A stretch of DNA of 64,000 nt from Nemertoderma westbladi (Eukaryota > Animalia > Xenacoelomorpha): NCBI GenBank assembly GCA_032718475.1, contig JAUCBJ010008699.1, positions 1 to 64,000 on the forward strand, in the 5' to 3' direction. Numbering within the stretch: the stretch's first letter is position 1; the number at the start of each line of letters is the position of its first letter. The position numbers and the translations under genes are program-made. The notes under the pieces are model-generated. The model worked only from the letters and a program-made list of their open reading frames with translations. It had not been told where the DNA came from and made no database searches. Shown here piece after piece: positions 9,201 through 57,993 of this stretch.

Positions 9201-9262
9201 ACTAGGCCCCTATATTAATTAAAAACAACTAATAAGGTGGAATACAAAGTAAAGAGACTTAC

Positions 9263-16250: not shown

Positions 16251-16924
16251 TATTCAAAAATTTTAACATTACGAAATGATTGTACATATACATATACATT
16301 ATAAGTGATAGAAACTGCACAAATTATATTAGTTGCTGTATAAATAAATGTAAAAATGACATAAATTATGTTATAAATAAGTTAGCTTATATTTATGGTG
16401 GCGTTTGGAGCCGTGTTATAATAATATAGCTAAGCCCTACTGGTTATCAATAGCTATACCCCGCCTACCGGTAGGTATTACAGTATGCCTATCTGGCTGT
16501 GAGGCAAATTTCCACCTATTGTTTACGTTGACGCTACTTATTTTTAAGTTCGTAGATATCGGAGATGCGGCCTTTTTTACACATTAAAATTTATTGACGT
16601 GGATTTGCAGTTTGGCTTTTGATTTAGTAGCGTAATGGAATTGGAATTGGGGCTATTTGTATTTTGTATGTATAGAGTACAGAAATACATTATTGTGAGT
16701 AGATTATATGTTCATTGTTCAACTGATAATTGAACATGGTTGACGTTTCTAATGTCATGGTGATTGGATGTTGTACGTTAAAGAAAGGATATATTGGACA
16801 GCTGTTTAAAACTGATTATTATTAGATTCGGATTATACGATTAGTTTTCGATTATCAGGATTTATCTTTTTATATAGCTTTACAATTATTATACTGTACA
16901 TTAGATTTATTAGGTAGTTAGTTT

Positions 16925-22900: not shown

Positions 22901-24690
22901 GAGTAGGTTGTACGGTACATTGGTGTCCCTTATTTGAATAGGTTGTACATTGGATTTATGTCCCTTATTTGAGTAGGTTGTACATTGGATTTATGTCCCT
23001 TATTTGAGTAGGTTGTTGTACATTGGATTTATTTACCTTATGTGAGTAGGTTGTACATTGGATTTATGTCCCTTATTTGAGTAGGTTGTATATTGGATTT
23101 ATGTCCCTTATTTGAGTAGGTTTTGCATTGGATTTATGTCCCTTATTTGAGTAGGTTTGGCATTGGATTTTTGTCCCTTATTTGAGTAGGTTTTGCATTA
23201 GATTTATGTCCCTTTATTTGAGTAGGTTGTACATTGGATTTATGTCCCTTGTATTTGAGTAGGTTGTACATTGGATTTATGTTCCTTATTTAAGTAGGTT
23301 TTGCATTGGATTTATGTCCCTTTATTTGAGTAGGTTGTACATTGGATTTATGTCCCTTATTTGAGTAGCTTGTACATTGGATTTATGTCCCTTATTTGAG
23401 TAGGTTTTGCATTGGTTGGATTTATGTCCCTTATTTGAATAGGTTTTACATTGGATTTGTCCCTTATTTGAGTAGGTTTTGCATTGGATTTATGTCCCTT
23501 TATTTGAGAAGGTTCTACATTGGATTTATGCCCCTAACTTGAAAGTAGGTTTTGCATTGGATTTATGTCCCTTTGTTTGAGTAGGTTGTACATTGGATTT
23601 ATGTCCCTTATTTGAGTAGGTTGTACATTGAATTTATGTCCCTTATTTGAGTAGGTTGTACATTGGATTTATGTTCCTTATTTGAGTAGGTTGTACATTG
23701 AATTTATGTCCTTTATTTGAGTAGGTTGTACATTGGATTTTTGTCCCTTATTTGTGTAGCTTGTACATTGGATTTATGACCCTTATTTGAGTAGGTTGTA
23801 CATTGGATTTTTGTCCCTTATTTGAGTAGGTTTTGCATTGGATTTATGTCCCTTTATTTGAGTAGGTTGTACATTGAATTTATGTCCCTTATTTGTGTAG
23901 GTTGTGCATTGGATTTATGTCCTTTATTTCAGTAGGTTGTATATTGGATTTATGTCCCTTATTTGAGTACGTTGTACTGTACATTGAATTTATGTCCCTT
24001 ATTTGAGTAGGTTGTACACATTGAATTTATGTCCCTTATTTGAGTAGGTTTTACATTGCATTTATGTCCCTTATTTGAGTAGGTTGTACTTTGAATTTAT
24101 GTCCCTTATTTGAGTAGGTTGTACATTGAATTTATGTCCCTTATTTGAGTAGGTTGTACATTGGATTTATGTCCATTATTTGAGTAGGTTGTACATTGGA
24201 TTTATGTCCCTTATTTGAGTAGGTTGTACATTGGATTTTTGTCCCTTATTTGTGTAGCTTGTACATTGGATTTATGATATGACCCTTATTTGAGTAGGTT
24301 GTACATTGCATTTTTGTCCCTTATTTGAGTAGCCTAGGTTGTACATTGGATTTATATCCTTTATTTGAGTAGGTTGTACATTGTATTTATGTCCCTTATT
24401 TGAGTAGGTTGTACATTGGATTTTTGTCACTTATTTGAGTAAGTTGTACATTGGATTTATGTCCCTTATTTGAGTAGGTTGTACATTCGATTTTTGTCCC
24501 TTATTTGAGTAGCCTAGGTTGTACATTGGATTTATATCCTTTATTTGAGTAGGTTGTACTGTACATTGTATTTATGTCCCTTATTTGACTAGCTTGTACA
24601 TTGTGATTGGATTTATGTCCCTTATTTGAGTAGGTTGTACATGTACATTGGATTTTTGTCCCTTATTTGAATAGGGTGTACATTGGATTT
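16925..24690. repeat. Intronic satellite, 35-bp unit TTGAGTAGGTTGTACATTGGATTTATGTCCCTTAT, ~220 copies
   Basis: Directly visible head-to-tail repeats with variant subtypes and no unique spacers; fills most of MCM4 intron 2. Confidence 0.98.
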
Positions 24691-25078
24691 AGATCTCAAC
24701 AACCATATCTCTAATTTGATTGGCTGAAACATTTCAAGTATACCACCACTGGATAGAACATGTCGATTAAGTGCAGTTGGTAGTAGATGTGAAAATCGTC
24801 AAAAATGGATTTAGTTATTTTTTATTTTAGAGATAGCAACCTACTGGTGCAAAAGTTAATAAAATAACATTTTATTGAATTGGCCTCCAGAAGTTACCCA
24901 ATTTAGTTTTTACTTCTATATATTAATTAACTGTATTATTAAGTAGTGTTTTTGTTTTTTTAATATATTTTAATATTACTTTTTGTACTGTTAATTACTT
25001 AGTTACATCGACTATCAGCATCTTATTAGCTAATTTATATTATTAACTTGTTTTTATATTGTGCTTTACTGTTACCAG

Positions 25079-25968
25079 GTAACCGGTATCTACCGCGCCA
25101 GCCCGTTGCGCCCAAACCCCCGACAACGCAACGTAAAGGCGGTCTACCGGACGCACATCGACGTCATCCATTACCGACCACCCTCGGTCGGCACGGACGG
25201 CCCTCCTCGCTTCGCTCCCGAACGCGTCGCCTTCCTCCGCGAGCTGTCCGGTCGTCCGGACGTCTACGAACGTCTGGCTCGCGGCCTCGCCCCCTCCGTC
25301 TACGAACACGACGACATCAAGAAGGGGATCCTGCTGCAGCTGTTCGGTGGACGTCGGAAGGACTTCAGTGCGTCTGGAAGGAGCAACTTCCGCGCGGAGA
25401 TCAACGTGTTGCTGTGCGGAGATCCCGGGACCTCCAAGTCGCAGTTGCTGCAGTATGTGCACCGACTAGCGCCGCGGGGGCAATACACCTCGGGGAAGGG
25501 CAGCAGCGCGGTTGGACTCACAGCCTATGTTACCAAGGACCCGGAGAGTCGCCAACTGGTGCTGCAGACAGGCGCCTTAGTGCTCAGTGATAACGGGGTC
25601 TGCTGCATTGACGAGTTCGACAAGATGTCCGAGTCGACGCGCTCTGTGCTGCACGAGGTTATGGAGCAGCAGACATTGTCCATCGCCAAGGCGGGGATTA
25701 TTTGTCAGCTGAACGCGAGAACCTCGGTGCTCGCCGCCGCCAACCCCGTCGACTCCCAGTGGAACGCGAAGAAGACGGTGGTTGAGAACGTCCAGCTGCC
25801 GCACACGCTGCTATCCCGGTTCGATCTGATATTCCTGATGCTGGACCCCCAAGATGAGTTGTTCGACCGACGGCTCGCCAACCATTTGGTTTCGCTTTAC
25901 CATCAGGGAGGCGCTGCGGAGGAGCCGGAGGAGTTCCTTCCTGTCGAAGTCGTCAAGGATTACCTCGG
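25079..25968 (+). CDS. MCM4: MCM4 coding exon 3 (AAA+ MCM box)
   Basis: Acceptor taccAG; Walker [10 protein letters not shown] (MCM4-type), Walker [10 protein letters not shown] and arginine finger SRFD; donor GG|GTGAGT, phase 2. Confidence 0.97.
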
Positions 25969-26036
25969 GTGAGTAGCTCTGATGTTGAGTTAAGTTTGTG
26001 TTGTGTTTCGTAGAATTTCGAGAAGTGGTTCAGGTT

Positions 26037-26155: not shown

Positions 26156-27074
26156 AGCTGTAATGGGAACTATTACTATTGGGATTATTGAACCTTGGGA
26201 GTTAATGTGGCGCCCTTCAATGAAGTTTTAAGTTTTTTATTTACGCCAAGATTAAGAAGTATTCGATAGCAACGATAAAAATTTACAATAAAATATATAA
26301 CACAATAATTATTAAGTAATTTAAACAATAATTATGCGTGTTAAAACACGATTATTAAAATATCACAAGTTATAATCTTCCTCAGTAAATTTTGATAGGT
26401 TAGATAATTCATGGCCTCATGAGGCCAAACCTCGTTTCCATGAAAGTCCCATGGAATGTCTAAAAACAAATTGCACAATAATAAATACCAGTAACATATT
26501 TAAAAAAATAATGATTTTACTAAAACATCTGAAACGACTATTTAAAAATATGTATTAAGATGGCAAAATTAGAACTGAACTAAAATATTAAGGAAACATT
26601 TACACCAATGTGCACCAATTAGTCCAATAACTTACAGGTAACATCCAAGAGATATTAGAGCTTCGGGAGTAGTAGGTGTTTGGGCGGCTTGGTGACACTT
26701 AGACCCCACTCATGACCCATCACTTAGGAATGTGACACCTAGGGTGTCATTGGCGCCAGACTGTCTGTGTCTGGGTGACACCTCCCAATTAGGCTAATTA
26801 GACCCTAATTGACGGGTGTTATCAATTAATTAGTACATTTAATCCCTAATAGATTTCTTATGACTCCAAATTAGGGTTTAATTGATTATCCTAATTAATC
26901 AGACCGATTAGCGCCCTAACACCCAATGGATCATGAGTGATGTCTAACCATCACCTAGAGGCCCAAACGGGTGTCATAAGTGACACCTCTGCTCTTTTAT
27001 TTATTGGTACTTATTTATTTGTATTTAATTTTAATTTATTTAATTGTATTGCTTTTACTTTATTTAATTGATTT

Positions 27075-27367
27075 TGTGACGGGATCAAGGGATCCCGACC
27101 GGTTAAATAGACTACGCGTCACCGTAGTAGTGAAATAAAATAGGAGTTTGTTGTTATCTCTCTGATACTTTGAGTGTTAATACTGAATATAGGTGAACTG
27201 AATAATAGCACAATGAAAGGTAGCGGATGCTATAGCTGTATAGGGTACCGGTATGTGGATATATTGGTGACGGTGAGGATTGTCACCGGTCTGCACTAAA
27301 AACCAATAATTGAATAACTGATTTACAGACCGGTAGCAGGATAATATATATATGTATAATTACTACA
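27075..27367. mobile_element. Possible LTR remnant (TGTGAC...ACTACA) truncating the left TIR
   Basis: TGT...ACA termini typical of LTRs; begins exactly where the TIR match stops; no TSD seen. Confidence 0.35.
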
Positions 27368-27457
27368 CTGCTGTGGCCTCTTAACCTAGTGGATGCTTCC
27401 CTCGCCCCTATTGGCTGATAATCTACTTCACGCCTCTCCCCTCTCTGGGAGTGTTTC

Positions 27458-28600
27458 CCCCCTGCTGTTGGCCCCTGCTGGTTGTTTCATCTCCCGAGGT
27501 GATTTGACCTCTAACCTCCCTTTGTGTGGCTTTGGGGTTTGTGTTGTCCCCGGTTATTGGTTGTGATACGAGATTGGTTGTCGCCAATCTCGTATCTCCA
27601 ATATTGCTGAAAAGGGTGCCACTGCCTAACTTTGTGAGGGTAGTGCGGCGGAATTGAATCCGCATACACTCCCCCCCCATGCTATCTTCCCGGTGAGAAG
27701 ATAGCATCACCTGTAAGTGTGCTTCAATTCCGCTGGAACCCGATCTACTATCGGGTGTGGGGTGGAGTTCTTTTCTTGGAGTCGGCTTTCCAGGCCGCTC
27801 CCTCTGGGTATGATATTACTACCCCTTCTTGGTGCAACCGCAACCTATGTTGCACCAAGACATCTGACGTCTCTGTTTGAGACAATTGTGGACTCCTCAC
27901 ACAATTTTAAAAACTCCTCTCACTCTAAGTTCACTCTAACTCCACTTCAGCTCCACTCTAACTCCACTCTACTCTATCTTACTCGCCCCCCGCACCCGAA
28001 TCGCATTCCTCTCACTTTCCCTCATCCTGTCAACACCTCCTCTCCATTCTTCCCCCCGATTCCCATTCTCGCTTTCATCCCTTGCACACTTATTGGGCCC
28101 CACACATGTGCGCACATGTTAGTGGGAGCCGTCTAAGTCCCGTCCTGTCGCCCTAGTCAATTAGTCCCCAGTCCCAGTAGCTAATTGGAAAAAGGTTGTA
28201 CTTGACTATGGTACATACTCTATAATATATATACGAGTTATATATAACAATTAATTATTATAATTATATATTATATTATATGCTCGTCTACATGATGCGC
28301 CTTAACCCCCCCCCGCTCATAGGTGATATGACTCGTCACTCCAAGTCTCGCCCATTTCATTCTTTCCCCGACTTTCTCGTTTGGCGACTTCTTCCAGTCG
28401 CTTCTCCTCAAGTCTATCCGCTTCCAACTTCTCCCACCTCTGATATGGTGTATCCACCTCCCTGTCTACTAGATGCCGGTTGTTGTAGTACACCGACTCG
28501 TCCTTCAGCCCCGGGTGGTCTACCAGACCTTCGAAGGCCACCTTGAAGGCTCTTCTGTAGTTCGGGGGTGGTTCTGATATTCTTAATTTTTTTTTTTAAT
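27458..28600 (-). mobile_element. BEL/Pao leader and 5' gag fragment of a second or permuted copy
   Basis: 27458-27668 is a ~210-bp near-identical direct repeat of 34796-35006 (upstream gag) and continues into purine-rich degenerate coding sequence. Confidence 0.55.
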
Positions 28601-28649
28601 TTTGATTTTTTGTTTTATCCTCATTTGCCCCTGTTCTGTGCTATCATTT

Positions 28650-29352
28650 TGTACCTACCTCTCTACTTACTTCTTACTTACTACTTACTGCTATGGTGTG
28701 TTGTACCCATATACCATATTCTCTAGTCTATTACTGCTAACTCTACTAACTCCACTAGCTCTACTAACTCCCTAACTCTACTAACTCTCTAACTCTACTA
28801 ACTCTCTAACTCCAATGGTACTATCTACCCTCCTACTACCCTCGTGGTATGTCTCTATATCACACTCCCTGATCTCTAAATCCAACGGTACTGCGTACCC
28901 TCTTACTCCCGTGGTATGTCTCTATACCACACTCCCTGATCTCTAACTTCTAACTCTCACGGTACTATGTACCCTCTTACTCCCATGGTATGTCTCTATA
29001 CCACACTCCCTGATCTCTAACTTCTAACTCTTACGGTACTATGTACCCTCTTACTCCCGTGGTATGTCTCTATACCACACTCCCTGATCTCTAACTTCTA
29101 ACTCTTACTCTTACTCTTACTAACTTCTATTAACTTTCTAACTATTACTAACTTCTGCTAACTTTCTAATAACTACAACTAACTTTCTAACTACAACTAA
29201 CTTCTGCTAACTTTCTAACTACTACTTAGTGCTACATACTATCTACTACTATCACTTTCTGACTTTCTCCTTTCTAACTTTCTTTCTATTATTTTATTTA
29301 TTTTATTATTTTTTATATTTTGTGTGGGAAGGGCGTTTCGCCCTCTATCCCA
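28650..29352 (-). repeat. BEL/Pao LTR with internal tandem repeats (distal end approximate)
   Basis: Polypurine tract GAGGGGGG (29360-29353) then TG, just after the integrase stop; contains 67-74-bp repeats (28844-29100) and CTAACT-rich runs. Confidence 0.6.
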
Positions 29353-29385
29353 CCCCCCTCAGTCCAACTCTTGGACGACTAAACT

Positions 29386-30525
29386 CTATGGTGCCCCTTC
29401 TAGCAGGCAGCACTTTCCTACAGCCCTCCTGTAGGTCTTCCTATCCTTTGCTCCTATCTTACCCCCTATCGGCACTTCCACCGATCGGACTCTTCCGTCC
29501 TCGTCGGGGTAAGTGTCTACTACTCTCGCTAGCCTCCACTGATTGTTGATGATTGTGTCATCGGTGACGATCACTAAATCACCTTTCTTTAACTCTCTAG
29601 TGGTATTTCTCCACTTGCTCCTCCTGTGTAATGTAGGTAGATATTCCTCGACCCACCTCCTCCAATACTCTGCGCTTATCGCCTTGGCGACTTTCCAACT
29701 CTGTCGTGAGTGTATGTCATCTGGGTCTACACACCGCATGTCGATGGTCGCTGGCCTTTCCATCAGAAAGTGGCTCGGTGTTAGCACGTCTAGTGATTCC
29801 GGGTCGTCATTCTCTGGATATAGCAGTCTGCTATTGATGATTCCCTCGCACTTAGCTAGCACCATTCTTAGAATGTCCTCTGTCACCATGTGGGTGTTCA
29901 TCAACTTCGTCATCAGACGCTTGGAACTACCCACAAGCCTCTCGACGCATCCTAAAGTATGTGGCGCATACGGCGTCCTCCTTTCCCACTTCACCTGTCG
30001 TCTCCTCATGGCTGCCCTGACTTCTTCTCCTTCTAGGATGTCCAAGGCCTCCTCCAACTCGTTCTCTGCCCCCACAAAGTTGGTTCCATTGTCGGAATAG
30101 ATCACTGCGATCGTCCCACCTTTGCGGTCCCTGAATCTCTCTAAGGCATTGATGAATGCCGATGCCGTGGCGTCCTGGGCGAGTTCTCTCCCTACCACCC
30201 TCGTGTTGTTACATACGAAGATGATGCCGTATCGTTTCTCCGTGTGTCGCATCACCTTGATCTTGATCGGCCCAAACATGTCTATGCCGCAGTGCATGAA
30301 TGGCGGGTCATGCTGTCTCACCCTACTGGCCGGTAATGGCGCCATCTCCTGTACGGCCCTCTCCTTTCTTGTCCATCGGCAGGTCTGGCACTGCCCCACT
30401 ACCGCCTTCACCTTCTTTCTCAGCTGCGCAATCCAGAAGGTCCTCCGTATCTCTGTGAGGGTTTGGTTGGTGCCTCCGTGTAATATCGACTTGTGGGAGT
30501 CCCAAATGATCTGGTGGACTATCGG
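29386..30525 (-). pseudogene. BEL/Pao integrase (HHCC and DDE), separated from pol by a premature stop
   Basis: CQTC, CGIDMFGP, IYSDNGTNFVGA, ERLVGSSK, YWRRWVEEYLPTL and LKKGDLV. Confidence 0.9.
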
Positions 30526-33500
30526 CTATCTGTTGGGGATGATAATGGGTTTTGGTGGGATGATAAGGCTGTTGTTACTCAGCACTCTGGAATTCATCAC
30601 CAGAATCCCGTCATCATTGAGTTGTGGTGACAGCGTGATGAGCTCGCTGTCCCGACGAAGGTGTTGTGGTTTGCTGACCCGATCCACTTCGTCGCCATAG
30701 TTCTTTCTCTGTTCGTACCGTATCACGGGCTTAGCCGCTCCCTCCAGATCGATGTTTAGTTTCCTCTTGGCGTCCTTGCCAACTCCCTTGAGGAAATTCC
30801 CGTAGGCCCTCCAGTACGCCACCAACTTCTTGGTCTTGTACCAACTGGAGCTGTAGCTAAGTAGCCTATCTGTCGGGTTGTCGCATGGCTCTTCTAATTT
30901 CGGTTGCACCTCCCTGACTTCCCTAACCATCTGACTATATATCTCTTCTCCCTTTGAGTCTTCTTCCTCTCCCCCAGGTGCTACTTCCTCTGAAACCGGG
31001 TCCACCTTCTTCATTGGTGGCCAGGCCGATCTATCGTTCAGGAAGTGTGGCCCGTGTTGCCACAATACTTCCTTCTTTAAGAAAGTGTGGCGTGCCATGC
31101 CCCTCGATAACAAGTCTGCTGGGTTCTCGTCCGTTGGGCAGTAGTGCCACCTTTCCAAGTCTGTCGTCGCCCTTAATTCGTCCACCCTATTCGCGACGAA
31201 TATAGGGTATCTCGTCTTCTCGTTGTGCAGCCACCCGAGCACTACCATGGAGTCCATCCAGTAGTGTGTTTCCACTATGTTGGGGATAGTGTCCATCAAG
31301 TAGGCTGTGTCCCTTACTCTTAATCTTGCAGCTGTCAACTCGAGTTTCGGGACCGATGCTGAATCTGGCGGCGTCGACTTTGCTTTGCTGAATGCAAGTC
31401 TGGGCTTATGAGCCCCCTTTCGTTGTACTAGGTAGAGTGCCGCTCCGTATGCTTCCAGTGATGCATCGGAGAACATGTGTAGGTCCAGATCCGTCATGTC
31501 CCCATCCGGGAAATACACGCGTGGCATGCTGTACGTCCCCATCTGTTCTAAACTCCCTGTCCACTTACTCCATTGCTTGCTGATTTCTTCCAGGACCTCT
31601 GTATCCCACTCGTCCTTTAACTTATATACTTTCTTAAGTATCTGTTTCCCCGTGACTAACAGTGGGGTTGCTAGGCCTAAGGGATCGTATATCCTTGCTA
31701 TGTACGATACATAGCCCCTCTTTGTGTGGATGTCCGCGCCCTCCTGGCTCAGTTGATACTTGAACTCGTCTGTCTCCCGGTTCCACACGATCCCCAGTGC
31801 CTTCTGCTGAGACTCCGCTCTCTTGCTCGCCATGTCCTGTCCCTTGGCTGTTGTGGGGTTATCCATGGTCGACTCTGGTCGTCTGTCTTCTATGGCTTTC
31901 ATAAACTCCTCTGAGCTGGATTGGAACTTGGTCAGGTTAAACCCGGATCCCTTCAGGGTGTCGCGAACCTCGCGCCCCGTATCCAGTAATTCTTTAACCG
32001 TGTTTCCAGACTCCATTCCATCGTCTACGTAGAAGCCGCGTCGAATCATATCGACCGCTTTGGCGCTATACTTCCCTTCTTTCCCCTCTACTGTATCTCT
32101 TACAGCCACAGTCGTCGTGAATGAGGATGACTTGGCCCCCATATTCTGCACCACCATCTTGTACATTGGTATTGTTGGCAGTTCCTCATCGCCGTTGTAC
32201 CATAGGAAGCGCTGGCTGTCGCTATCATCCTCCGTCACACGGACTTGGTTGAACATGCCTTCAATATCACAGGTGAAGGCGTGTCTCCCATTTCTAAATC
32301 TCAGTAGGACCTCGATTCCCGAGTTATAGATATTGGGGCCCTCCAGCAGATAGTCGTTTAGGCACTTGCCGCTGGTTTTAGCCGATGCGTCAACTACCAT
32401 CCGCAATTTGCCTTTCTTTGGATCTAAAGCCACATGAAGTGGCAGGTAGTAGGTCCTGTCCGTGTTTGGTTCGTCGACCGGCAACTCCACGGCCCATCCT
32501 TTCTCGACGTACTTGTTTATCGTCTTATGGATGTACTCATCCTTTTCGGGGCTCCGTTTCAGCGTTTGCTTCAGTTTGCGAAGCCTCGTGAGTACCATCC
32601 TCTTGTTGTCAGGCAACGGTAGCTTCGGCTGTTTCCACACCATGCCTATGGTGTACCGTCCCTCCTCGCATCTCATCAACTCCTTCATACTTTGTACCAC
32701 TTGTTTATCCTCTACCGAGGTTCCGACCCCGGTCTCCTTTAGTCCCTCAAAGTCCTGTCTCAGCAGTCTCCTAAGCTGCTCCTCCGCTCCTTCATCTTCC
32801 ATCTCCCTCATAGTTCCCGCGAACATGCACCCTGATGTCTCCGACATCCTAAACGGAATCTTGGTTTTAATTGGGCCGTTTAGCGTCCACCCGAATGGTG
32901 TTAGAATTGCCATCGGGTCACGCTGTCTGTCTTCGCCGAAGACCGTTTGCATTCTCTCGTGGGCCGTGGGGCAATCCATTCCCACTATGATGGATACCTT
33001 CCTGACGTCCACCTCCGGTATCGAGAAATCGATGTTGTCCAGGAATTTGTATTGTTCGACCTCAATGTTGGTTGGTCGCCTGGCGTTGATGTTGATCGAT
33101 TCTATTACCTGGATGGGGTTGATGGTCGCCCCATAATCGCATCCCGGTGCTATCTCGCACCGTCCCGTCCTCATCTCCAGGACCTCATCTTTGCTGGAGA
33201 TGGTTGTTACCGCCATCCTACTTGGCCTCGTCTTTAGTCCTATCTCTTCGGCCACCCAATTCTCCACCAATGTGAAGGCTGCTCCACTGTTGATCAGCAT
33301 CAACGTGGTTACTGATCGACCTCCTTCCCCTATCACCCTCACTGGTACTACCCCGAGTAGTACCGTTCCTCTTTTCTTCGCCCCTATGGTGCTTGTCACC
33401 ATTGTTTGACCTTTGCCTTGACCGAATCTTACTGGTGTCTCCTTACACTCTTCAACCTTGTGTCCCCCTATCACATATCGGTGACAAATTCCATTCTTAT

Positions 33501-33555
33501 CCGCATAGGCTTTCCGATCTTGTTCGGGTAATGCCTGCCAATGCTTACAGTCCAT
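30526..33555 (-). mobile_element. BEL/Pao pol: aspartic protease, RT, RNase H
   Basis: LINSGA (protease DSG changed to NSG), TPFGWTL, YYLPLH, RMVVDAS, DIEGMFNQV, FYVDD, IYDPLG, FSDAS, SVPKLEL and ENPADLLSRG. Confidence 0.95.
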
Positions 33556-33559
33556 GGTC

Positions 33560-35006
33560 TTATGGGTTCTGTCTATGCAACTGACATTTGTATTCTGGGT
33601 TGTAACGTTCCCTATATAACCTTACACGTATTGCGCGTAGGTTTACGTCTACCGGTCTAGTGTTTTGGATATTTGAGTTTGGCCTACTGGGTATGTTGGG
33701 ATTATATTTGTTCGTGTTGTTATTTGGACCCTGTTCGTGCCACAGTCTGGCCCCACTTCCAGCTATCTGTGGACTTGCAGTCCCCTGTGTCGCTGCGTAT
33801 GATAGGGATTGTCTTAATTTTGGCAACGCATTTGCCGCGTTATGCTCTGGTTTCGGCCTGTTGTATTCAGCCCTCGGCGCCTTCCCCAGACTATCCTCGC
33901 TGTAGACTGGGTCCGTGATTAACTCTGCTTTGTAGTTGAGGAAGTTCGACATTTCCTCTAAGCCCAGTTCCGCACCTTTCTTCTCCCGGGTGGAGAAGGC
34001 GATCTTTCTCCATTTATTGCGCAGCCAGATTGGCAGTGTCTGCGCTATTGTGGTGATATTATTAGATGCGTTGAGTTCGTATGGCGCGTCTAGCGTTTTC
34101 AGCACGATTAACGCCTTTTCGACCTTGGTCGCGAAGGTCTTTATGCTAACAGGGTTATCCTGTAGGCCACCTGATGTTATCCCCCTTAGGGTCTGCCAGA
34201 TGATCTTGGCTGGGTGTCCGTATTCCCTGTCTAGGGCCCGCCATGCAGTCGTGAAGCCACCCTCGATGCCCTGATACTGCCTCACGATGTCGTACGCTGG
34301 GCCTCCTGTATATACTTGTAGATATTTTAGGCACTCCGCCTGCGTCAGGTTCTTAGTTAATATCTCGTTGCTGTATATGCGCCGAAATTGCAGGTATTCT
34401 TCTGGCCTACTTCCGTCGAATTTAAATGGCTCTACGGGTGGTAGCTCGATTCTGGTCTTGAGCACATCGATTAGTGTAGCCATTCCCATTGCCTGTGCTT
34501 CCAATGGGTTCGAGGGATGCTGTATAGATTCTCCCGTCAGGTGCAGCCCGCCCGTCCGGCCTGTTGTCTTCCGTTGCGTCGGATATACCATTGGGGGTAA
34601 CGGCCCCCTCCATATTTGCGTGTCGCAAGATCTGTTCTCGTCCAGGGGGTTCGATGTTCTTATTTCTGTTTGAGTGTACTGTTGATATTGTAATGGGGGC
34701 ATGTCACCGTGTCCCCCCCCCCCCCCCCCCACCCCCACCGATGGTATGTTTGGTACTGGGGTTGATTTTAATATATTGGGGAAGCCCAATATATACCCCC
34801 TGCTGTTGGCCGCTGCTGGTTGTTTCCTCTCCCGAGGTGATTTGACCTCTAACCTCCCTTTGTGTGGCTTTGGGGTTTGTGTTGTCCCCGGTTATTGGTT
34901 GTGATATGAGATTGGTTGTCGACAATCTCGTATCTCCAATATTGCTGAAAAGGGTGCCACTGCCTAACTTTGTGAAGGTAGTGCGGCGGAATTGAATCCG
35001 CATACA
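33560..35006 (-). mobile_element. BEL/Pao gag, 5'-truncated, frameshifted relative to pol
   Basis: LPPVEPFKFDG, CLKYLQVYTGGPA, AWRALDREYG and LPIWLRNKW are BEL gag motifs; zinc-knuckle region broken at ~33560. Confidence 0.85.
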
Positions 35007-35261
35007 GATTTCTATTTTTAGAATTACCAATAATTAGTTTTATATATTACTTTCTAAATAAGGTCATTGACTTTCACCTCGCTATATTTAGCCCTAGGGT
35101 ATAGCTCCCTTACTGGTAACCAGTGGCGGAGATCTGTATTTGGGAGTGGTGGGTAAATAACTAATTTTCCAACAACATTTAATAATAAATATTATAACAA
35201 CAACAACAACAATAGTTATAGATAAAACAAGAAAAGTTTTTATTTAATAAGACTATTTATA

Positions 35262-35507
35262 TTAATAGAGAAGTTGGTCTCTAGGAATAATGTTTGGTTT
35301 TACCCTTTTAGTGTCCACTACTATTGGCGTTTGCAATAATTTTTGCTTTAATAGCTTGTTGAGATATCCATTTCTTGGGGGGTGAAATAGGTTGAGATGT
35401 GTTTGTTGCAGGTTATAGATAAAGGCTGCACTATTGTTATTTATTAGATATTGTTGGTGATTGGGAATCATAATCTGCTTTGGTTCGAAAGCAAATTGTA
35501 TAGCCAT
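35262..35507 (-). CDS. Hypothetical 81-aa protein in the ITR cassette
   Basis: ATG 3 nt after the upstream stop; followed by AATAAA (35244-35239) and a GT/T-rich tract. Confidence 0.4.
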   Translation of the reverse strand: MAIQFAFEPKQIMIPNHQQYLINNNSAAFIYNLQQTHLNLFHPPRNGYLNKLLKQKLLQTPIVVDTKRVKPNIIPRDQLLY

Positions 35508-35510
35508 AGC

Positions 35511-36528
35511 CTAGAATCTGATTAGAGCTTTGCGCGCTCGAATGATGTTAGCTATAGTAAAGGGTTCGTTAAATTTTCTCTCGGTTATCTGCATGTCGCG
35601 TTTTGAACCGCATCCACTGTAACTTTGTACCGATATCTGTTCGGAAATGTTTTCTTGGCAGGCACTAAGTTCTTTGTAACAGTTACAATCACTATCCTCG
35701 ATGGTTGAATCGAACCATTTCAATTTGGCTACCTCGGTTGGTGTAAGTAGAATCGTGTCCCGAGACGAAACAATGGGCTTTCCATTGTCGACCTCGTAAC
35801 CACTGGTGATCGCTAAATTACGCTCATTCTGAATATTTGTAACACCCAATCGCCTGGTTTTAAGACAAAGTGACTAATGGGATTAATAAAAGGGCGAAAG
35901 ATGTTTACATAATGTTGAAATAAATTGGCGCAGGCAATGGAAAAGGTGATCCAAAAACCGTTTACAGTGTCTTCCAACTTTATTAATTCGAGTGGTTTCA
36001 CTGGGTTAACACTTCCGTAGGTGCCAACTCTATAATTGAACCCAAAGTAATAAGAGACTTTATTAGCATAAAAGCAGGTGAGCTTATTCAATTTCTTGCC
36101 GAAAGCGAGAACATCCTTGGCGAAAAGTTTAAAGAAACGAGTCTCCTCTTCCTCGGTTGGAGTCGAGGAGTTCCAGATGAGAAGAAGAATCGAGCGATAT
36201 TATGAAAATTGAATAAAAGGTCGTCGGAGAAGAAGGATGTTACAAGAGTGGTTAAACCAAGTAAACGATTTGCGATGTCTTGGTTGATGTTTTCTCGAAT
36301 AAAAACAACAATACTAGTTGGAATCGTAAACTTCTCGTGCGAAGTAGTTAGATTAAACGTTATTTTGTTACCCTTTTTAAAAAATTTGAAACCGTGGTTG
36401 GAGGAATGAAGTTTATTATCATCGAGAGTTTGATAGTGTCCATCGTGAAGTTCATAGCAGGCGCGGAAAATAAAGTGCATGTAGTTTGCCGGAATCGGAA
36501 GGGGTTGGTTTAAGGTTGTATTTATCAT
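35511..36528 (-). pseudogene. Hypothetical protein, probably one ~340-aa ORF broken by two frameshifts (or three overlapping ORFs)
   Basis: ATG at 36528 (MINTTLNQPLP); overlapping open frames 36088-36528, 35813-~36200 and 35511-35849, the latter two lacking their own upstream ATG. Confidence 0.4.
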
Positions 36529-37300
36529 TATAATGGAAAGAGTTTGTTCACCGAATCGAAATAGAAGCCAAATGAGTTGTCTAGTAGCGTAAACTGATTC
36601 TCGCTGCAAACCAATTTGTTGGTTGAAAAGCTGATTTCTGAATGTGCCATTGTGAATGTGAATTGTGAATGTAACTCGTTTTAGGAAAGAAAGAAATAAT
36701 TAAATATATACTTTTAAGAAAATAACTAAAAATTTTAAACACTAAAATAGAGAATGAATGGGAATGCAATGAACGGGGGTTATTATAGAGGGGGCTAGAA
36801 AGGGATTAGCCAATCAGGGCATGGGAGGGATATAGACAGCAAATCAGAGAGCAGCTTTGATGACGTTATAAGAGGCTAGTTATAGTTTGCCCAATGTTAT
36901 TCAATTGCAACCATAATGGCGCCATTGAATAACGAAGGCAAAGGGAGGGCCGCAATAGAGTAATTAGTTATCAGTATGGGAGCTATATACCCTAGGGCTA
37001 AATATGGCTGAAAGTCTATGGCGAGGTCGTAGCCGGAGTGGCGCCAAAGATGAGGTCATTAAGCCTCGGGGTATAATATAAATAGGTTCAATACAATAGA
37101 GGACCCTACGCTGATTAGTATAGGATTATTAGAGTCTATTGGATTAGGGGCAGGGGCGCTTGGATATAGATAAGAATAATTAGTTACCAGTAAGGGAGCT
37201 AGCTATACCCTAGGGCTAAATATAGCGAGGTGAAAGTCAATGACCTCATTTAGAAAGTAATATATAAAACTAATTATTGGTAATTCTAAAAATATAAATC

Positions 37301-39180
37301 AATGAGCTGAGGAACAAGATGTCATCCTAAAGCTTGATTTTAAGAACGCTTTTAATACTTTGAGAAGGGATCACATTGCAGATTGTATTGCAGATAAAGC
37401 CCCCGAGCTTCTCCCATTTTATAGGTTATGTTATGGTAGAACGACCCTCCTCTCATTTGGTCAAGATCTGCTGCTTTCTGAGGAGGGTTTCCAACAGGGG
37501 GTTAGCTGTCTTTGGATTTTGCCTAGGACTCCACCCGAATCTTGACAAATTACAGACAATATTCAAAGCAGGTTATATTGATGACGTTACAGTTGGAGGA
37601 AACTGGGAAAAGGTACACTCCAATCTTTCATCTTTCAGAACAGCATGTAGCGATATAGGGCTATCTCTTAATGAGTCAAAATGTGAACTAACCATCATTG
37701 GGGACAAGTCAGGTGAGGAAAACCCAATCTTAACTTCATTCCAGAAGATCTGTCCAGGAATCAAGTTGACTAGATCACAGGATTTAGAGCCACTTGGTGC
37801 CCCCATTGGCCCCGAAGCCCTCTCTAATGTCATCTCTAAGAAGTTGGACAACCTCAGTCTGTTTCACAATCGTCTCCGTCTCCTTGACAACCATGACGCC
37901 TTTTTCCTACTCAAAAACTGTCTAGCCATACCCAAACTTACATACATGCTCCGTCCATCACCAACTTTCAACGAACCCCATCTACTTAGCAAGATCGATA
38001 ACAATATAAGGGAGTCTCTAGAAGAGATAACGAACGTTAAACTGGAAACTGAAACCTTGGAGCAAGCAATCCTTCCTTGTCGACACGGTGGCCTCGGAAT
38101 CCCTTCTGTGACAGATATTGCGCCTTGTGCATACCTCTCATCATTGCATAAGAATGAATCGTTAATTAAAGAGATTTATCAGTCTCCTAGTGAGAACAAA
38201 CACCATGGAGAAGCCATAGACTGTTGGAAAAGCATGATCCCAGAGGCGAATACTCCAGAAGATCCAAAGAGGCAGAGAAACTGGTTGGAACCAATAACAG
38301 TTTCACGGTTTGCCTCGCTCCTGGAAGTATCAGACAAAACATCAGCTGCACGCCTGAGAGGTTGCAAGGTCCAAGGATCTGGGGACTGGCTCAACACCTT
38401 GCCATCTCCCTCCCTTGGCCTGAAATTATCTAATGAAGATTTTGGAATCGCTGTTGCTCTTCGGCTGGGCGCACAAGTTTGTATCCCGCACCCTTGCGTG
38501 TGTGGCGCTGCCGTAGACTCATCAGCTCACATGCTTTCACCTGCAACCACATTAAGAGCCGCCATCAACATCACAGGCTCGGGAATGATGCAATTCATCG
38601 GGCACTTGCGTCTGCAGAGATTTCTAGCACGTTAGAACCTGTTGGAATGTGTAGAAGTGATGGTAAGAGACCGGACGGGGCCACATTGCTCCCATGGGTG
38701 AGAGGCAAGCCTCTTATTTGGGACTTTACTTGCGTCCACCGCCAGGCTCCCTCTTACTCCCAAACAGCACTCCTAGATGGTCCTACTGTAGCAGACATGG
38801 CTGAAGATAGGAAACTAATGAAATATAGCGAACTCTCACGTAATTATATAATTCAACCTGTAGCTGTCGAATCACTGGGCGGTCTTGGTACCTCTACGAT
38901 AGCATTCATCCGTGAGCTAGGGCACTGTATACAGAAGGTATCTGGCAACAAAAAATCGATTGAACACCTCCGTCAACGTTTAGGGGTTTTTGTATCCAGG
39001 TCGGTAATGCTGCATGCGTCAAAGAGTCCTTTGCTGCACATTCCGAGTCTTTTAGAGAAATTTTATTTAAATAGTGTCAGAGGAATCTAGCGTAAAAGCT
39101 AACGGGTCTGGAAGTTATGATCAGGACAATGTTGAAGATCCACAATTAGAGTTTATCGAATAACATTATTTGTATTAAAA
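37301..39180 (+). mobile_element. CRE-clade (RLE-type) non-LTR retrotransposon, 5'-truncated and frameshifted
   Basis: RT motifs LKLDFKNAFN, GFQQG, YIDDV and HGGLGI; CCHC-like CVC...HAFTC; restriction-like endonuclease DGKRPDGATLLPW...IWDFT...AEDRKLMKY...PVAVESLG. Confidence 0.88.
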
Positions 39181-40011
39181 TAATGGAACATTAATATTTA
39201 TCTACGTATTGTATTATTACTCAACTATACAGTTCTCTATTTAATTTAAATCAATTAAATAAAGTAAAAGTAATACAATTAAATAAATTAAAATTAAATA
39301 CAAATAAATAAGTACCAATAAATAAAAGAGCAGAGGTGTCACTTATGACACCCGTTTGGGCCTCTAGGTGATGGTTAGACATCACTCATGACCCTTTGGG
39401 TGTTAGGGCACTACAGTAATCAGTCTGATTAATTAGGATAATCAATTAAAACCCTAATTAGACGTCGTAAGACATCTATTAGGGATTAAATGTACTAATT
39501 AATTGATGACACCCGTCAATTAGGGTCTAATTAGCCTAATTGGGAGATTGTCACCCAGACAGTCTGGTGCCAATGACACCCAATGACACCCTAGGTGTCA
39601 CATTCATAAGTGATGAGTCATGAGTGGGGTCTAAGTGTCACCGAACCACCCAAACACCTACTAATTTCGGGTTACCTCCTGTGCACATTCAACTGGAGAA
39701 CAAGTTGTTTTTAAACTTTTACTTTCCTAAATTCTAAATATTGATAGGGCCTATAGCATCTACATAATTATTAATTTATTATTTAATTATTAATTCATTA
39801 TTTCAATAATTTATTTTGTATTTTATTTCAAAAACGTTAATAAATGAATTATTTCGACTTCTCATCGTCTTCTAAAAATAATAATAAAATAATCCGGCTG
39901 GATATCGGTTAATAATTCCACCCAAACAGATAGGATATCCGGATATAATATTACATATTGAGTAGAGAACAGATAGGCCAGCAACTGAACGGGTGTGATT
40001 ATTTGTCGCAG

Positions 40012-40531
40012 GTACGCGCGCTCCGCTATAGATCCGTTGCTAGACGACCAGGCGGCCCAGCTGCTGGTCCAGAAGTATGTTGAGATGCGTAAAGCGGGCG
40101 CCGGTCGAGGTCAGGTGTCCGCATATCCAAGGCAACTGGAGTCCCTGATCCGACTGTCGGAGGCCCACGCGCGGATGCGGTTGAGCGGCTCGGTGGAGGT
40201 CTGCGACGTGGAGGAGGCCCACCGGTTGCACCGGGAGGCCTTGAAGCAGTCGGCGGTGGACCCGGTCACCGGAATAGTCGATATCAACATCCTCACCACC
40301 GGAATGACAGTGACGGCTCGCAAGGCCCAGGGGGTGCTCGCCCGCGAGGTGCTGGCAGTCCTCAAGGAGTGCAGACACACGGTGGTGTCGCGGAAAGACG
40401 CCTTCAAGTTGCTCAACGAGAAAACCGAGCGAACCAATCAGAAGGCGATGTTTGAGGAAGCCTTGAGGATCCTTCAGGACGATGACCATATCATTATGAG
40501 TAACCAGAACATTCGTATTCTTAGTAAATAG
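40012..40531 (+). CDS. MCM4: MCM4 coding exon 4 (AAA lid and C-terminal winged helix)
   Basis: Acceptor tcgcAG at 40010-40011 restores KDYLG|YAR; SAYPRQLESLIRLSEAHA and ALKQSAVDPVTGIVDINILTTG; TAG stop. Confidence 0.95.
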
Positions 40532-42702: not shown

Positions 42703-44687
42703 TGTACATGTCAAAATGTCAATTCAAAAGTGACATTTTGGCAAAATGACATGGCAAAATGTCAACTTGAAAATGACATTTTGGCAAAATTACATGTCAA
42801 GATGTCAATTCGAAAGTGACATTTTGGCAAATGACATGTTAAAATGTCAATTTGAAAGTGACATTTTGGCAAATTGACATGTAAAAATGTCAATTTGAAA
42901 GTGACATTTTGACAAAATGACATGTCAAACTGTCAATTCGAAAGTGACATTTTGGCAAAATGACATGTCAAAATTTCAATTCGAAAGTGACATTTTGGCA
43001 AAATGACATGTCAAAATGTCAATTCGAAAGTGACATTTTGGCAAATGACATGTCAAAATGTCAATTTGAAAGTGACATTTTGTCAAAATGACATGTCATA
43101 ATGTCAATTCGAAACTGACATTTTGGCAAAATGACATGTCACAATGTCAATTCGAAAGTGACATTTTGGCAAAATGACATGTCAAAATGTCAATTCGAAG
43201 TGACATTTTGGCAAAATGACATGTCAAACTGTCAATTTGAAAGTGACATATTGACACATTGACATTTTGGCAAAAATGACATGTCAAAATGTCAATTCGA
43301 AAGTGACATTTTGGCAAATGACATGTCAAAATGTCAATTTGAAAGTGACATTTTGTTAAAATGACATGTCACAATGTCAATTCGAAAGTGACATTTTGGC
43401 AAAATGACATGTCAAAATGTCAATTCAAAGTGACATTTTGGCAAAATGACATGTCAAACTGTCAATTTGAAAGTGACATATTGACACATTGACATTTTGG
43501 CAAAATGACATGTCAAAATGTCAATTCGAAAGTGACATTTTGGCAAATGACATGTCAATTTGAAAGTGACATTTTGTCAAAATGACATGTCAAAATGTCA
43601 ATTTGAAAGTGACATTTTGACAAAATGACATGTCAAACTGTCAATTCGAAAGTGACATTTTGGCAAAATGACATGTCAAAATGTCAATTCGAAAGTGACA
43701 TTTTGGCAAATGACATGTCAAAATGTCAATTTGAAAGTGACATTTTGTCAAAATGACATGTCACAATGTCAATTCAAAAGTGACATTTTGGCAAATGACA
43801 TGTTAAAATGTCAATTTGAAAGTGACATTTTGGCAAAATGACATGTAAAAATGTCAATTTGAAAGTGACATTTTGACAAAATGACATGTCAAACTGTCAA
43901 TTCGAAAGTGACATTTTGGCAAATGACTGTAAAAATGTCAATTCGAAAGTGACATTTTGGCAAAATGACATGTAAAAATGTCAATTTGAAAGTGACATAT
44001 TGACAAAATGACATGTCAAACTGTCAATTCGAAAGTGACATTTTGGCAAAATGACATGTCAAACTGTCAATTTGAAAGTGACATATTGACACATATTGAC
44101 ATTTTGGCAAAATAACATGTCAAAATGTCAATTCGAAAGTGACATTTTAGCAAATCACATGTCAAAATGTCAATTTGAAAGTGACATTTTGACAAAATGA
44201 CATGTCAAAATGTCAATTTGAAAGCGACATTTTGACAAAATGACATGTCAAAATGTAAATTTGAAAGTGACATTTTGGCAAAATGACATGTCAATATGTC
44301 AACTTGAAAGTGACATTTTCACAAAATGACATGTCAAACTGTCAATTTGAAAGTGACATATTGACACATATTGACATTTTGGCAAAATAACATGTCAAAA
44401 TGTCAATTCGAAAGTGACATTTTAGCAAATGACATGTCAAAATGTCAATTTGAAAGTGACATTTTGACAAAATGACATGTCAAAATGTCAATTTGAAAGC
44501 GACATTTTGGCAAAATGACATGTCAAAATGTCAATTTGAAAGTGACATTTTGGCAAAATGACATGTCAAAATGTAACTTGAAAGTGACATTTTGACAAAA
44601 TGACATGTCAAACTATCAATATGAAAGTGTCATATTGACACATTGACTTTTTGGCAAAATGACATGTCAAAATGTCATTTTGACAAA
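42703..44687. repeat. Quasi-palindromic ~43-bp satellite GTGACATTTTGGCAAAATGACATGTCAAAATGTCAATTCGAAA
   Basis: Directly visible tandem array. Confidence 0.97.
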
Positions 44688-48106: not shown

Positions 48107-49782
48107 TCATTTATTTATTAACATTTATTTTGGAATATATTAGTTATGATTATAATTTGTAGGAATCAATAATCCTTATCCAACTCAAAACATTAAAGGA
48201 TTTATGGGAGTTTTGAGTTATAATTAGTTATTATTATTATTAAATATTACCATTTTTTTGTTCGACATATTTTTATCTATCCAGCTATAAAACTTGTTAT
48301 ATTCAATTGGAGTTAATAGGAAAGCCGTTATTGCGAACCGGGGCCACTAATTTTAAGCGAAATTATTTGTTATTAATATTTAGAAATTTTACTATAATTC
48401 GTCGCTGTCCGTCTCAAACTCGAGTATTTTCTATAATAAATTTATTATAAATATTAAACTAGTTTCTATATAAGCTAGGAGTCTGTAATATTTACTATTA
48501 TTATTATTATAGTTTGTCTCTTGTTTTATATTCTTGGTGAGTGGCTTCTTGTTTACATAAACATCAATATATTAAACCAAATAAATATGTTTTATGTTAT
48601 ATAATATTATACTATTTTTCTACCTCTACCCAATATTTTCACTTCATCCAACTGCAATAGAAATCAAAATTAATCTGTCACGTGTAACTTTAGTTTATTG
48701 TTTTGGTTAGAATAAGGTGCCACTGTTATTGGAAAGTACATTAAAAAGTATATAAGACAATCACCAAACTTACTTCATAAGAAAAATTACAAATCGAAAT
48801 GATATATTGGCCTTCTATCTACATAAACTGAAAGTAAATGGGCCGTACGGCGTTATGTAATCACAAAAAGCGACCTGATTACGATGCCATTTTATATGAA
48901 ATCCCTTTAATAAGTAACTTCCCAAAAAAGTTATTAAGATTTTTTTACATATTAATAATCCTGAATAATGTAGCTTTCAAATGAACTATAAATTATAAAG
49001 TGCCGTGTACGAGATCGAGAGTTACATTTGTTTTAATACACAAAATCAACTAAATTACTCATCAATTGATTTTTTGCAAATTAAATATTCTAGCTCGCCA
49101 GTCAGTAGCCAATGAGAGTCCAGGATTCCCATTAACAATGATTGTTTAAGGCCGCCGCCAGGTTAATGCTTGTAGTATGGAGTGTAGCGCTATAGAGGAG
49201 AATTAATCTTATTGAGTTGAATCGGCAAAGTTCAATTACATTATAATTCGCTTAGGATATTTTGTTGTTCTGGATTGCGGTTTTTAATATAACTATTTAA
49301 AGTTGATGCAATAAAGACTTTCTGCCGCTCTATTTCACTTTGCAGTTACCCCCATGTGAAGAATACCAGGTTTTCACCAAAAACACAGGTTACAAAAAGG
49401 ATAACTTTTCTCTGAGAGTTTGAAAACTGGGCTGTGATATTTTATTTTAATAGAAAATCGAATTTTATATAAATAAATATAATTCAAACTCAACATTATC
49501 TTGCCCTGGAAGTCTGTAAATCTGGGCGTCCAGTAAACGTGTCTGTCTGCCTATTTGTCTGTTCCAAAGTCTTCCCGGGCGTCCGGATGTCCGGACGCCT
49601 GGGCACTATAATGCCCGGACATCCTAAAATCCTTCAAATTGTCCGGATTTCCGAGCAAATTTGTCCAACAAGTATAACAAGTACAAATACAAGTATAAGT
49701 TATAGTACTAGTACTAGTACAATTACAAGTACAAGTACAATTCCAAGTACAATTACAAGTACAAGTACAAGTACATGTACAT

Positions 49783-57230: not shown

Positions 57231-57993
57231 ACGCTGCTGTCCCGGTTCGATCTTATATTCCTGATGCTGGACCCCCAAGATGAGTTGTTCGACCGACGGC
57301 TCGCCAACCATTTGGTTTCGCTTTACCATCAGGGAGGCGCTGCGGAGGAGCCGGAGGAGTTCCTTCCTGTCGAAGTCGTCAAGGATTACCTCGGGTGAGT
57401 AGCTCTGATGTTGAGTACTAAGTTTGTGTTGTGTTACGTAGAATTTCGAGAAGTGGTTCAGGTTCCAGCTGTAATGGAACTATTACTAGTGGGATTATTG
57501 GATTTAAGTTTTTTATTTACAATAAGATTAAGAATTACAGGTAACAGCCAAGAGAGAGGAGCTTCGGGTTGCCTCCTGTGCACATTCAACTGGAGAACAA
57601 GTTGTTTTTAAACTTTTACTTTCCTAAATTCTAATTATTGATAGGGCCTATAGCATCTACATAATTATTAATTCACTAATTAATTTTTAATTCATTATTT
57701 CAATAATTTATTTTGTATTTGACCCGGTCACCGGAATAGTCGATATCAACATCCTCACCACCGGGATGACAGTGACGGCTCGCAAGGCCCAGGGGGTGCT
57801 CGCCCGCGAGGTGCTGGCAGTCCTCAAGGAGTGCAGACACACGGTGGTGTCGCGGAAAGACGCCTTCAAGTTGCTCAACGAGAAAACCGAGCGAACCAAT
57901 CAGAAGGCGATGTTTGAGGAAGCCTTGAGGATCCTTCAGGACGATGACCATATCATTATGAGTAACCAGAACATTCGTATTCTTAGTAAATAG
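57231..57993 (+). pseudogene. MCM4: Partial MCM4 duplicate: end of exon 3 (57231-57394), short intron 3, distal exon 4 (57721-57993)
   Basis: Matches 25805-25968 and 40259-40531 plus the 3' flank; exon 4 acceptor and first 247 coding nt are missing. Confidence 0.93.

What the first reader, a model, noticed from the sequence alone, without database searches (positions are those of the whole stretch)
35007..37300. Orphan virus-like 2.3 kb cassette with its own inverted termini and translationally coupled ORFs
Seen: ~113-bp ITRs ending exactly at junctions with two unrelated truncated retroelements. The minus strand looks like one intronless transcription unit: CRE-like TGACGT (~36861), CCAAT (~36830) and TATA-like (~36785) motifs; a 40-aa ORF (36650-36528) joined by a TAATG stop/start overlap to MINTTLNQP...; further overlapping frames; an 81-aa ORF 3 nt after the previous stop; then AATAAA and a GT-rich element. 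I recognise no transposase, integrase or known domain. Inference: a segment or satellite of a linear DNA virus (Polinton-like virus, bidna/densovirus-like or transpoviron-like) or a Pack-type TIR element. Its position inside a Polinton shell hints at dependence on Polinton machinery.
Basis: partly seen in the sequence, partly recalled or inferred. Interest (0 to 1): 0.8.

Follow-up and report, generated by a model that had tools for sequence, protein, structure and literature searches.

The report
Mini-Polinton carrying one broken orphan gene
The 2.3-kb 'cassette' is not a separate virus-like unit but the middle of a 3.1-kb, many-copy jumping element with the end signature of Polinton virus-like transposons, whose two long end repeats were each split by a retrotransposon at the mirror-image spot; it likely relies on a full-length Polinton to move and carries what is likely one broken gene with no relative found.

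Summary
The inverted repeats and ORF pieces are real, but the cassette has no ends of its own. Its ~115-nt 'ITRs' are the inner part of ~520-nt TIRs of one element, 26668-39665. That element has AGTAGT/ACTAAT ends, a 6-bp target duplication and an empty site at 57563. A BEL/Pao LTR element (5-bp duplication) split the left arm and an RLE-type non-LTR element (9-bp repeat) the right. A contig from another sample joins inner and outer arm without the insert. Without the inserts the element is 3,109 bp and multi-copy. The 'coupled ORFs' tile as one ~460-codon frame with 4 breaks (12.6 in shuffles, 0 of 300 as low); two pieces lack a start codon. No homologue was found. A PC4/PUR-like fold is only a weak lead (Z about 3). 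Best reading: a non-autonomous Polinton/Maverick-type element with one degraded orphan gene, likely moved by a helper Polinton that I could not look for. Unexplained: both retroelements hit the same mirror position. The scan noted Polinton-ended elements without core genes in other genomes before, but not this sequence.

The parts
26662..26667 (+). left copy of the 6-bp target-site duplication TTCGGG of the whole element
   Evidence: single copy at the empty site 57563
26668..27074 (+). outer part of the left TIR; begins AGTAGT; repeated TGACACC/GGTGTCA words; about 90% AT at its inner end
   Evidence: 380 matches, 22 mismatches to the right arm
27075..35006 (-). inserted BEL/Pao LTR retrotransposon (3' LTR 27075-27668; 5' LTR reduced to 211 nt, 34796-35006), flanked by GATTT at 27070-27074 and 35007-35011
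   Evidence: Pfam Peptidase_A17, DUF1759, DUF5641, rve; direct repeats
35262..35507 (-). piece D (81 aa), same frame as piece C behind an in-frame stop at 35511-35513; AATAAA at 35244 downstream
35511..35873 (-). piece C (stop-to-stop 120 aa, no start codon near its beginning)
35813..36199 (-). piece B (stop-to-stop 128 aa, no start codon near its beginning)
36088..36528 (-). piece A (146 aa from MINTT); residues about 40-100 modelled as four strands followed by helices
36528..36650 (-). first piece (40 aa), ending at the TAATG overlap, where some sister copies differ in length
   Evidence: table 4
36780..36870 (-). candidate promoter words (TATAAT 36787 on -, CCAAT 36810 and TGACGT 36861 on +); function untested
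36957..37020 (+). partial internal duplicate of the inner arm (84% to 37173-37242)
37304..39246 (+). inserted 5'-truncated non-LTR retroelement with RT remnant and an RLE-like C-terminus (the label 'CRE-like' is recalled from motifs, not tested); second copy of the 9-nt repeat at 39247-39255
   Evidence: Pfam RVT_1 E 0.0019, below its cut-off; translation; family runs on upstream of 37300 in 3 of 4 runs
39247..39665 (+). outer part of the right TIR, ending ACTAAT (one mismatch to ACTACT)
39666..39671 (+). right copy of the 6-bp target-site duplication TTCGGG
57535..57617 (+). empty site in a partial duplicate of the same host MCM intron, with one TTCGGG at 57563
   Evidence: 31 of 34 and 54 of 55 bases match the left and right flanks

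Best explanation
The 2.3-kb stretch is the interior of a single 3.1-kb element (26668-39665 without its two retroelement inserts) that has ~520-nt terminal inverted repeats, AGTAGT-type ends and a 6-bp target duplication, and it is likely a non-autonomous Polinton/Maverick derivative that would be copied and inserted by the polymerase and integrase of a helper Polinton recognising those ends. Shown: the element's limits, the target duplication, the empty site, continuity of inner and outer arms, and multi-copy relatives. Inferred order of events: the element inserted into an intron of a host MCM gene after that stretch had been partly duplicated (the duplicate keeps the empty site). A BEL/Pao element and an RLE-type non-LTR element then inserted into the AT-rich inner zone of the left and right arm, cutting each TIR in two and creating the look of a nested cassette. 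Inferred: the minus-strand ORF pieces are one ~460-codon intronless gene that decayed in this copy (breaks near 36529, 36200, 35850 and 35512). My guess for its product, at about 1 in 5, is an accessory single-strand nucleic-acid-binding protein of PC4/PUR-like build that would coat displaced strands during replication. Otherwise it is a Polinton accessory or cargo gene with no detectable relative.
For: Ends and duplication match the published Maverick signature: 5'-(AGT)2//(ACT)2-3', 6-bp TSD, TIRs 46-1,447 bp (PMC8097293 passages; our values). Empty site with one TTCGGG; the word occurs 9 times in 64 kb. Each retroelement is bounded by a direct repeat: GATTT and TAAATCAAT; the 9-mer occurs only at these 2 places in the window. 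One X3 contig (another sample) joins 37291 to 39248, skipping the non-LTR insert (22 letters on the short side). One X2 contig links 37166 to 39345 (53 letters on the short side, letters between not known). Loose ends at 37291 (3 contigs, X1) and 37303 (4 contigs, X3) run into AT-rich sequence that looks by eye like the outer arm. Arm divergence does not differ significantly between outer (22 of 402) and inner (2 of 114) parts (P 0.13). Summed depth over the gene region is 1,348-5,223 in X1 and 4,873-22,225 in X2, against 18-58 for contigs identical to this copy (summed depth is not a copy number). One frame with 4 breaks spans 1,386 nt, against 12.6 +/- 1.9 in shuffles (0 of 300 as low) and 17 on the other strand. 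Sister contigs show a length difference at the TAATG place in X1 (depth 1,698 of 1,806) and gaps across the middle frame changes.
Against: No Polinton core gene lies in the element, and no helper with the same ends was seen: no genome is held, and 2 look-ups of earlier notes on this genome showed none. The right end reads ACTAAT, not ACTACT. The direct joint across the insert rests on 1 contig with a short side under 30 letters, and no read was laid across the BEL side. At the TAATG place only depth 197 of 16,710 shows the length difference in X2, and none in X3 (0 of 28) or X5 (0 of 113), so a real stop/start overlap in some subfamilies is not excluded. Coding constraint was not shown: 13 of 39 listed differences are synonymous against 10.7 expected (P 0.25; these are 39 of the 40 rows shown, 218 more were hidden). 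The PC4/PUR rows reach only Z 2.8-3.2 (rmsd 3.1-4.8, 53-80 residues aligned), below unrelated top rows (Z 4.2), on a model with mean pLDDT 56. The coincidence of both inserts at the mirror position is not explained.
Confidence: 0.72

Rival explanations
1. The same single element, but not Polinton-dependent: a non-autonomous member of another TIR superfamily with 6-bp duplications, or an autonomous element whose orphan gene is an unrecognised transposase.
For: No Polinton gene or helper was seen. About 460 codons is a plausible transposase length. The terminal ~250 nt has 10-30 times the depth of the interior, as in MITE families.
Against: AGT-repeat ends, a 6-bp duplication and ~520-nt TIRs together fit Mavericks. 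No DDE family was hit in any piece, even at E 10.
Confidence: 0.13
2. Two nested units: a palindromic Polinton-ended MITE whose centre took up an independent 2.3-kb element with its own ITRs. The seam between them would be a fragile site that attracted both retroelements.
For: Both inserts sit at the same mirror position, 403-407 nt from the left end and 411-419 nt from the right end; uniform chance is about 0.4%. The inner arms are slightly more alike than the outer ones (1.8% vs 5.5% mismatches).
Against: The only direct repeats at the seam are those of the two retroelements. Arm sequence runs on across the seam, and sister copies are continuous there. The step in depth lies near 39410, about 250 nt from the end, not at the seam. 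The difference in arm divergence is not significant.
Confidence: 0.07
3. One element as in the best reading, but the interior is a real small operon-like unit of several short viral ORFs coupled by stop/start overlap, read-through or frameshifting.
For: The TAATG overlap and the in-frame stop are real genomic sequence: contigs with 0 differences span them in X2 (36403-36600) and X3 (35120-35596). None of 39 differences makes or removes a stop in the tiled frames, against 5 and 2 in shifted frames.
Against: Pieces B and C have no start codon. The frame returns to its first phase after three changes. Sister copies differ in length at the overlap in X1.
Confidence: 0.08

Closest known systems
Polintons/Mavericks (PMC8097293 passages; bioRxiv 10.1101/2023.08.22.554363 passages; PMC3014272 passages)
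   Same: AGT-repeat terminus, 6-bp target duplication, TIRs of several hundred bases, intronless gene layout.
   Different: 3.1 kb instead of 13-25 kb; no integrase, pPolB, ATPase, protease or capsid gene detected; one orphan gene; apparently many copies, whereas the Anolis paper reports few copies and no non-autonomous ones.
Non-autonomous or core-less Polinton derivatives (the name Polinton-N1A_NV appears in PMC11296320 passages; unchecked notes on other genomes)
   Same: Polinton ends and duplication without the replication and integration genes.
   Different: Polinton-N1A_NV still encodes a capsid protein; the noted elements are 10-18 kb and mostly gene-less palindromes. This one is compact and built around a single gene.
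Maverick cargo and accessory genes (bioRxiv 10.1101/2022.07.12.499685 passages)
   Same: A gene of unknown origin lying next to the TIR.
   Different: The nematode cargo genes described sit in largely complete Mavericks, some with introns; here the gene is intronless and alone.
Transpovirons (PMC5499653 passages)
   Same: Small, TIR-bounded, capsid-less, helper-dependent DNA descended from Polinton-like elements; a working analogy.
   Different: Transpovirons are ~7 kb, depend on mimiviruses and encode an SF1 helicase; none of this is seen here.

Membership tests
Polinton/Maverick | long terminal inverted repeats (46-1,447 bp) | tested here: met
   about 520 nt once outer and inner parts are counted together; range
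Polinton/Maverick | 5'-(AGT)2//(ACT)2-3' or (AG)3//(CT)3 end motif | tested here: met
   left AGTAGT exact; right ACTAAT with one mismatch
Polinton/Maverick | 6-bp target-site duplication | tested here: met
   TTCGGG on both sides, single at the empty site
Polinton/Maverick (autonomous) | pPolB and retroviral-like integrase plus virion genes, 13-25 kb | tested here: not met
   interior is 2.3 kb with one tiled frame and no Pfam hit; it works like a dependent derivative and is not filed as an autonomous member
non-autonomous Polinton derivative | an autonomous Polinton with the same ends in the genome | not testable with these tools
   no genome held; contigs cannot be retrieved from the read-laying tool
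   arm sequence continues beyond both inserts and in sister copies
   all 4 runs are short-read contigs
transpoviron | SF1 helicase gene | tested here: not met
   no helicase family in 5 of 5 pieces at E 10; coding capacity about 460 codons against 1,000-1,400 aa
Pack-type TIR element | captured host gene fragments | tested here: inconclusive
   no homologue found, but the host proteome could not be searched
PC4/PUR/Whirly-like fold (gene product) | [quoted passage not shown] | tested here: inconclusive
   topology present in a pLDDT-56 model; 6 of 50 rows are PC4, Sub1 or PUR chains at Z 2.8-3.2; fold definition from PMC7549692 passages

The most novel reading that the evidence does not exclude
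A high-copy, gene-bearing satellite of an animal Polinton: a 3-kb element reduced to the Polinton ends plus one conserved, transcribed orphan gene for a PC4/PUR-like single-strand-binding protein that boosts or hijacks helper replication, the animal counterpart of transpovirons. The AT-rich mirror site in its arms would be a functional origin or open site that retroelements target.
Probability: 0.15. Interest if true: 0.7.

Novelty: new variant of a known kind. Interest (0 to 1): 0.35.

Why it matters
Polintons have hardly been watched in action, and compact dependent derivatives are thinly described: in 7 literature searches I found no account of a multi-copy mini-Polinton built around one gene, though Repbase entries and subscription papers were out of reach. 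A family that kept only the ends and one gene would mark out the minimal cis sequence for Polinton movement and point to a gene worth keeping. As it stands, the claim of a new virus-like cassette falls. This copy is a decayed, twice-interrupted insertion, and the lesson is practical: retro-insertions into both TIR arms can fake a nested element.

Tried and rejected
Protein searches without a real hit: piece C against longer proteins (300 candidates, 0 hits); piece B against longer proteins (61 candidates, 0); C plus D against 111-354 aa proteins (70 candidates, 0); piece A against 1.84 billion representatives (1 hit, P0001, a 2,129-aa Ig-repeat protein whose score is the sum of 10 weak stretches of about 25-27 bits; rejected); ESM Atlas (best 0.89 to bacterial hypothetical proteins for C, no usable hit for A); PDB sequences; Pfam and PHROGs. 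Pieces A and B were not searched at 'near' length in the 90% collection. No related loci in viral contigs or metagenome contigs. The model of piece C had pLDDT 32, so its fold search is meaningless. Foldseek for piece A gave nothing at E 0.001. No internal repeat among the pieces by BLASTP. No Rfam match in 26500-39900. No RNA holder was listed, which says nothing on expression. X5 has no cover over the body of the non-LTR insert, which is not used as evidence. Assembly error as the cause of two breaks was rejected because contigs identical to the window span them. No whole genome is held. Papers opened without result: PMC11662393, PMC4642659, PMC6431247, bioRxiv 10.1101/2025.02.07.637071; passages only.

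Full report
Setting. The window is animal-type DNA. It holds an ankyrin-RING-IBR gene and an MCM gene whose exons lie at 14431-15318, 25034-25972 and 39989-40531. The finding sits in the last intron of that MCM gene. No whole genome is held, so other copies were studied through contigs of public runs: 4 runs, at most 3 samples, X1 and X2 being one sample that may be the source of the assembly.

Observation. The inverted repeats are there: 35007-35120 against 37183-37300, 94.9% over 118 columns. No piece hits Pfam or PHROGs at E 0.01.

The repeats are not the cassette's own ends. Left of the cassette lies a BEL/Pao element (27075-35006) with intact LTR outer ends and GATTT on both sides. Right of it lies a 5'-truncated non-LTR element with TAAATCAAT on both sides. 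Part of that 9-mer may be microhomology: the family's own sequence matches from 37300 on, so the true duplication may be shorter. Beyond both inserts are a second pair of inverted arms, 26668-27074 and 39248-39665, and their inner ends continue the inner repeats base for base. In other copies the two parts are joined. One X3 contig goes from 37291 to 39248 (short side 22 letters), one X2 contig links 37166 to 39345, and loose ends at 37291 and 37303 (3 and 4 contigs) run into AT-rich sequence that looks by eye like the outer arm. The single direct joint is short, so the case rests mainly on the direct repeats and the arm alignment.

The mobile unit. The outer arms start AGTAGT and end ACTAAT and are flanked by TTCGGG twice. 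A partial duplicate of the same intron at 57535-57617 has both flanks joined over a single TTCGGG. So 26668-39665 inserted as one unit with a 6-bp duplication; without the two retroelements it measures 3,109 bp, with TIRs of about 520 nt. These are the published Maverick hallmarks: (AGT)2//(ACT)2 ends, 6-bp duplications, TIRs of 46-1,447 bp (PMC8097293 passages). The core genes are absent, so it is not an autonomous member. Summed contig depth over the interior is in the thousands in X1 and X2, lower and patchy in X3 (22-1,241), against 18-58 for contigs identical to this copy. The terminal 250 nt is 10-30 times deeper still. Depth is not a copy number, but it shows a repeated family.

The gene. 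One frame path across 36650-35265 needs only 4 breaks, against 12.6 +/- 1.9 in 300 dinucleotide shuffles (lowest 7) and 17 on the opposite strand. The first, fourth and fifth pieces share a frame, and the two middle-to-late pieces B and C have no start codon near their beginning. Sister contigs differ in length at the TAATG place in X1 (depth 1,698 of 1,806, 2 contigs), much less in X2 (197 of 16,710) and not in X3 or X5, and several carry gaps across the middle frame changes. Contigs identical to the window span the TAATG place (X2) and the in-frame stop (X3), so these are real features of this copy. The simplest reading is one ~460-codon gene broken four times. Purifying selection was not shown: 13 of 39 listed differences are synonymous against 10.7 expected (P 0.25). 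The listed differences are mostly those that set this copy apart, so the test is weak either way.

What the gene encodes. All sequence searches were blank or spurious. A single-sequence model of residues 1-109 of piece A has mean pLDDT 56, with a helix, four strands and helices. I had suspected a PC4-like module by eye before this (search terms). In the wide structural search 6 of 50 rows are PC4, Sub1 or PUR chains, at Z 2.8-3.2, rmsd 3.1-4.8 and 53-80 aligned residues, below unrelated rows at Z 3.9-4.2; no chain of 48,161 reached Z 5. This is a lead at about 1 in 5, not an identification.

Mechanism. Most likely a helper Polinton's protein-primed polymerase and integrase act on the shared ends to copy and insert the small element; this follows from the end signature and is not shown, since no helper could be sought. 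After insertion this copy lost its gene and took two retroelements in the AT-rich inner zone of its arms. That both landed at the mirror position (403-407 and 411-419 nt from the ends) is the one oddity left. It may be a coincidence favoured by AT content and by selection of striking cases in a large scan, or a real hotspot.

Comparison and novelty. The element works like a dependent Polinton derivative, and by analogy like a transpoviron (PMC5499653 passages), but fails the gene-content tests for both. A Polinton named N1A is mentioned in PMC11296320 (passages) but retains a capsid gene. Earlier unchecked notes of this scan describe core-less Polinton-ended elements of 10-18 kb in other genomes; they agree with a reading I had stated before the look-up and are not used as support. 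Nothing like this sequence was noted before. Seven literature searches gave no description of a compact, multi-copy, one-gene form. I read passages only, no supplements, and did not see Kapitonov and Jurka 2006 or Repbase, where such families may be recorded.

Verdict. Observation partly confirmed, interpretation partly supported. This is a new variant of a known kind, interest 0.35. The bolder reading, a maintained one-gene satellite of an animal Polinton, has probability about 0.15 and would deserve about 0.7.

Noticed in passing
window 27070-27074 / 35007-35011 and 37295-37303 / 39247-39255: Two unrelated retroelements inserted at overlapping mirror-image positions of the two TIR arms, at the edge of a tract about 87% AT. 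Chance is about 0.4% if sites are uniform over 3,109 bp and roughly 5-10% if limited to the AT tracts (my estimate). Some RLE elements target transposons (PMC4640811 passages).
   Followed up: partly
window 57200-58000: Partial, internally deleted duplicate of the host MCM gene's last exons and intron; it supplies the empty site. 48113-53609 is repeated at 58504-64000 at 99.9%, a recent tandem duplication or an assembly repeat.
   Followed up: partly
window 34796-35006 vs 27458-27668: The BEL element keeps only the first 211 nt of its 5' LTR (97.6% to the 3' LTR), fused to gag by an internal deletion, yet has intact outer ends and a 5-bp duplication.
   Followed up: partly
run X5, loose end at 39087: The loose end resembles the template-switch oligo of SMART cDNA kits (recalled, not from a call), so X5 may be a cDNA library although listed as 'DNA?'. 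It holds roughly 90%-identical relatives of 35880-36650 at depth 43-113, a weak hint that sister copies are transcribed.
   Followed up: no
window 39409-39742: The terminal ~250 nt of the arm has summed depth 119,559 (X1), 192,779 (X2) and 25,065 (X3) in its top bin, far above the interior: a much larger family of short or other elements shares these ends.
   Followed up: no
window 36898-37240: Sister copies show several deletions and rearrangements between the internal arm duplicate and the inner arm (joints 36945-37062, 37036-37237 and others).
   Followed up: no
window 16958-24691, 42706-44680, 49785-53665, 60176-64000: A 35-bp satellite of 217 units inside an intron of the MCM gene, and partly palindromic 43-bp satellites followed by CATAG/ATATAGC microsatellites whose long ORFs are repeat artefacts.
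   Followed up: no
window 5020-10846 (-), 14431-40531 (+): Host genes: an ankyrin-RING-IBR (Ariadne-type) ligase and an MCM helicase subunit with an MCM4 winged-helix hit.
   Followed up: no
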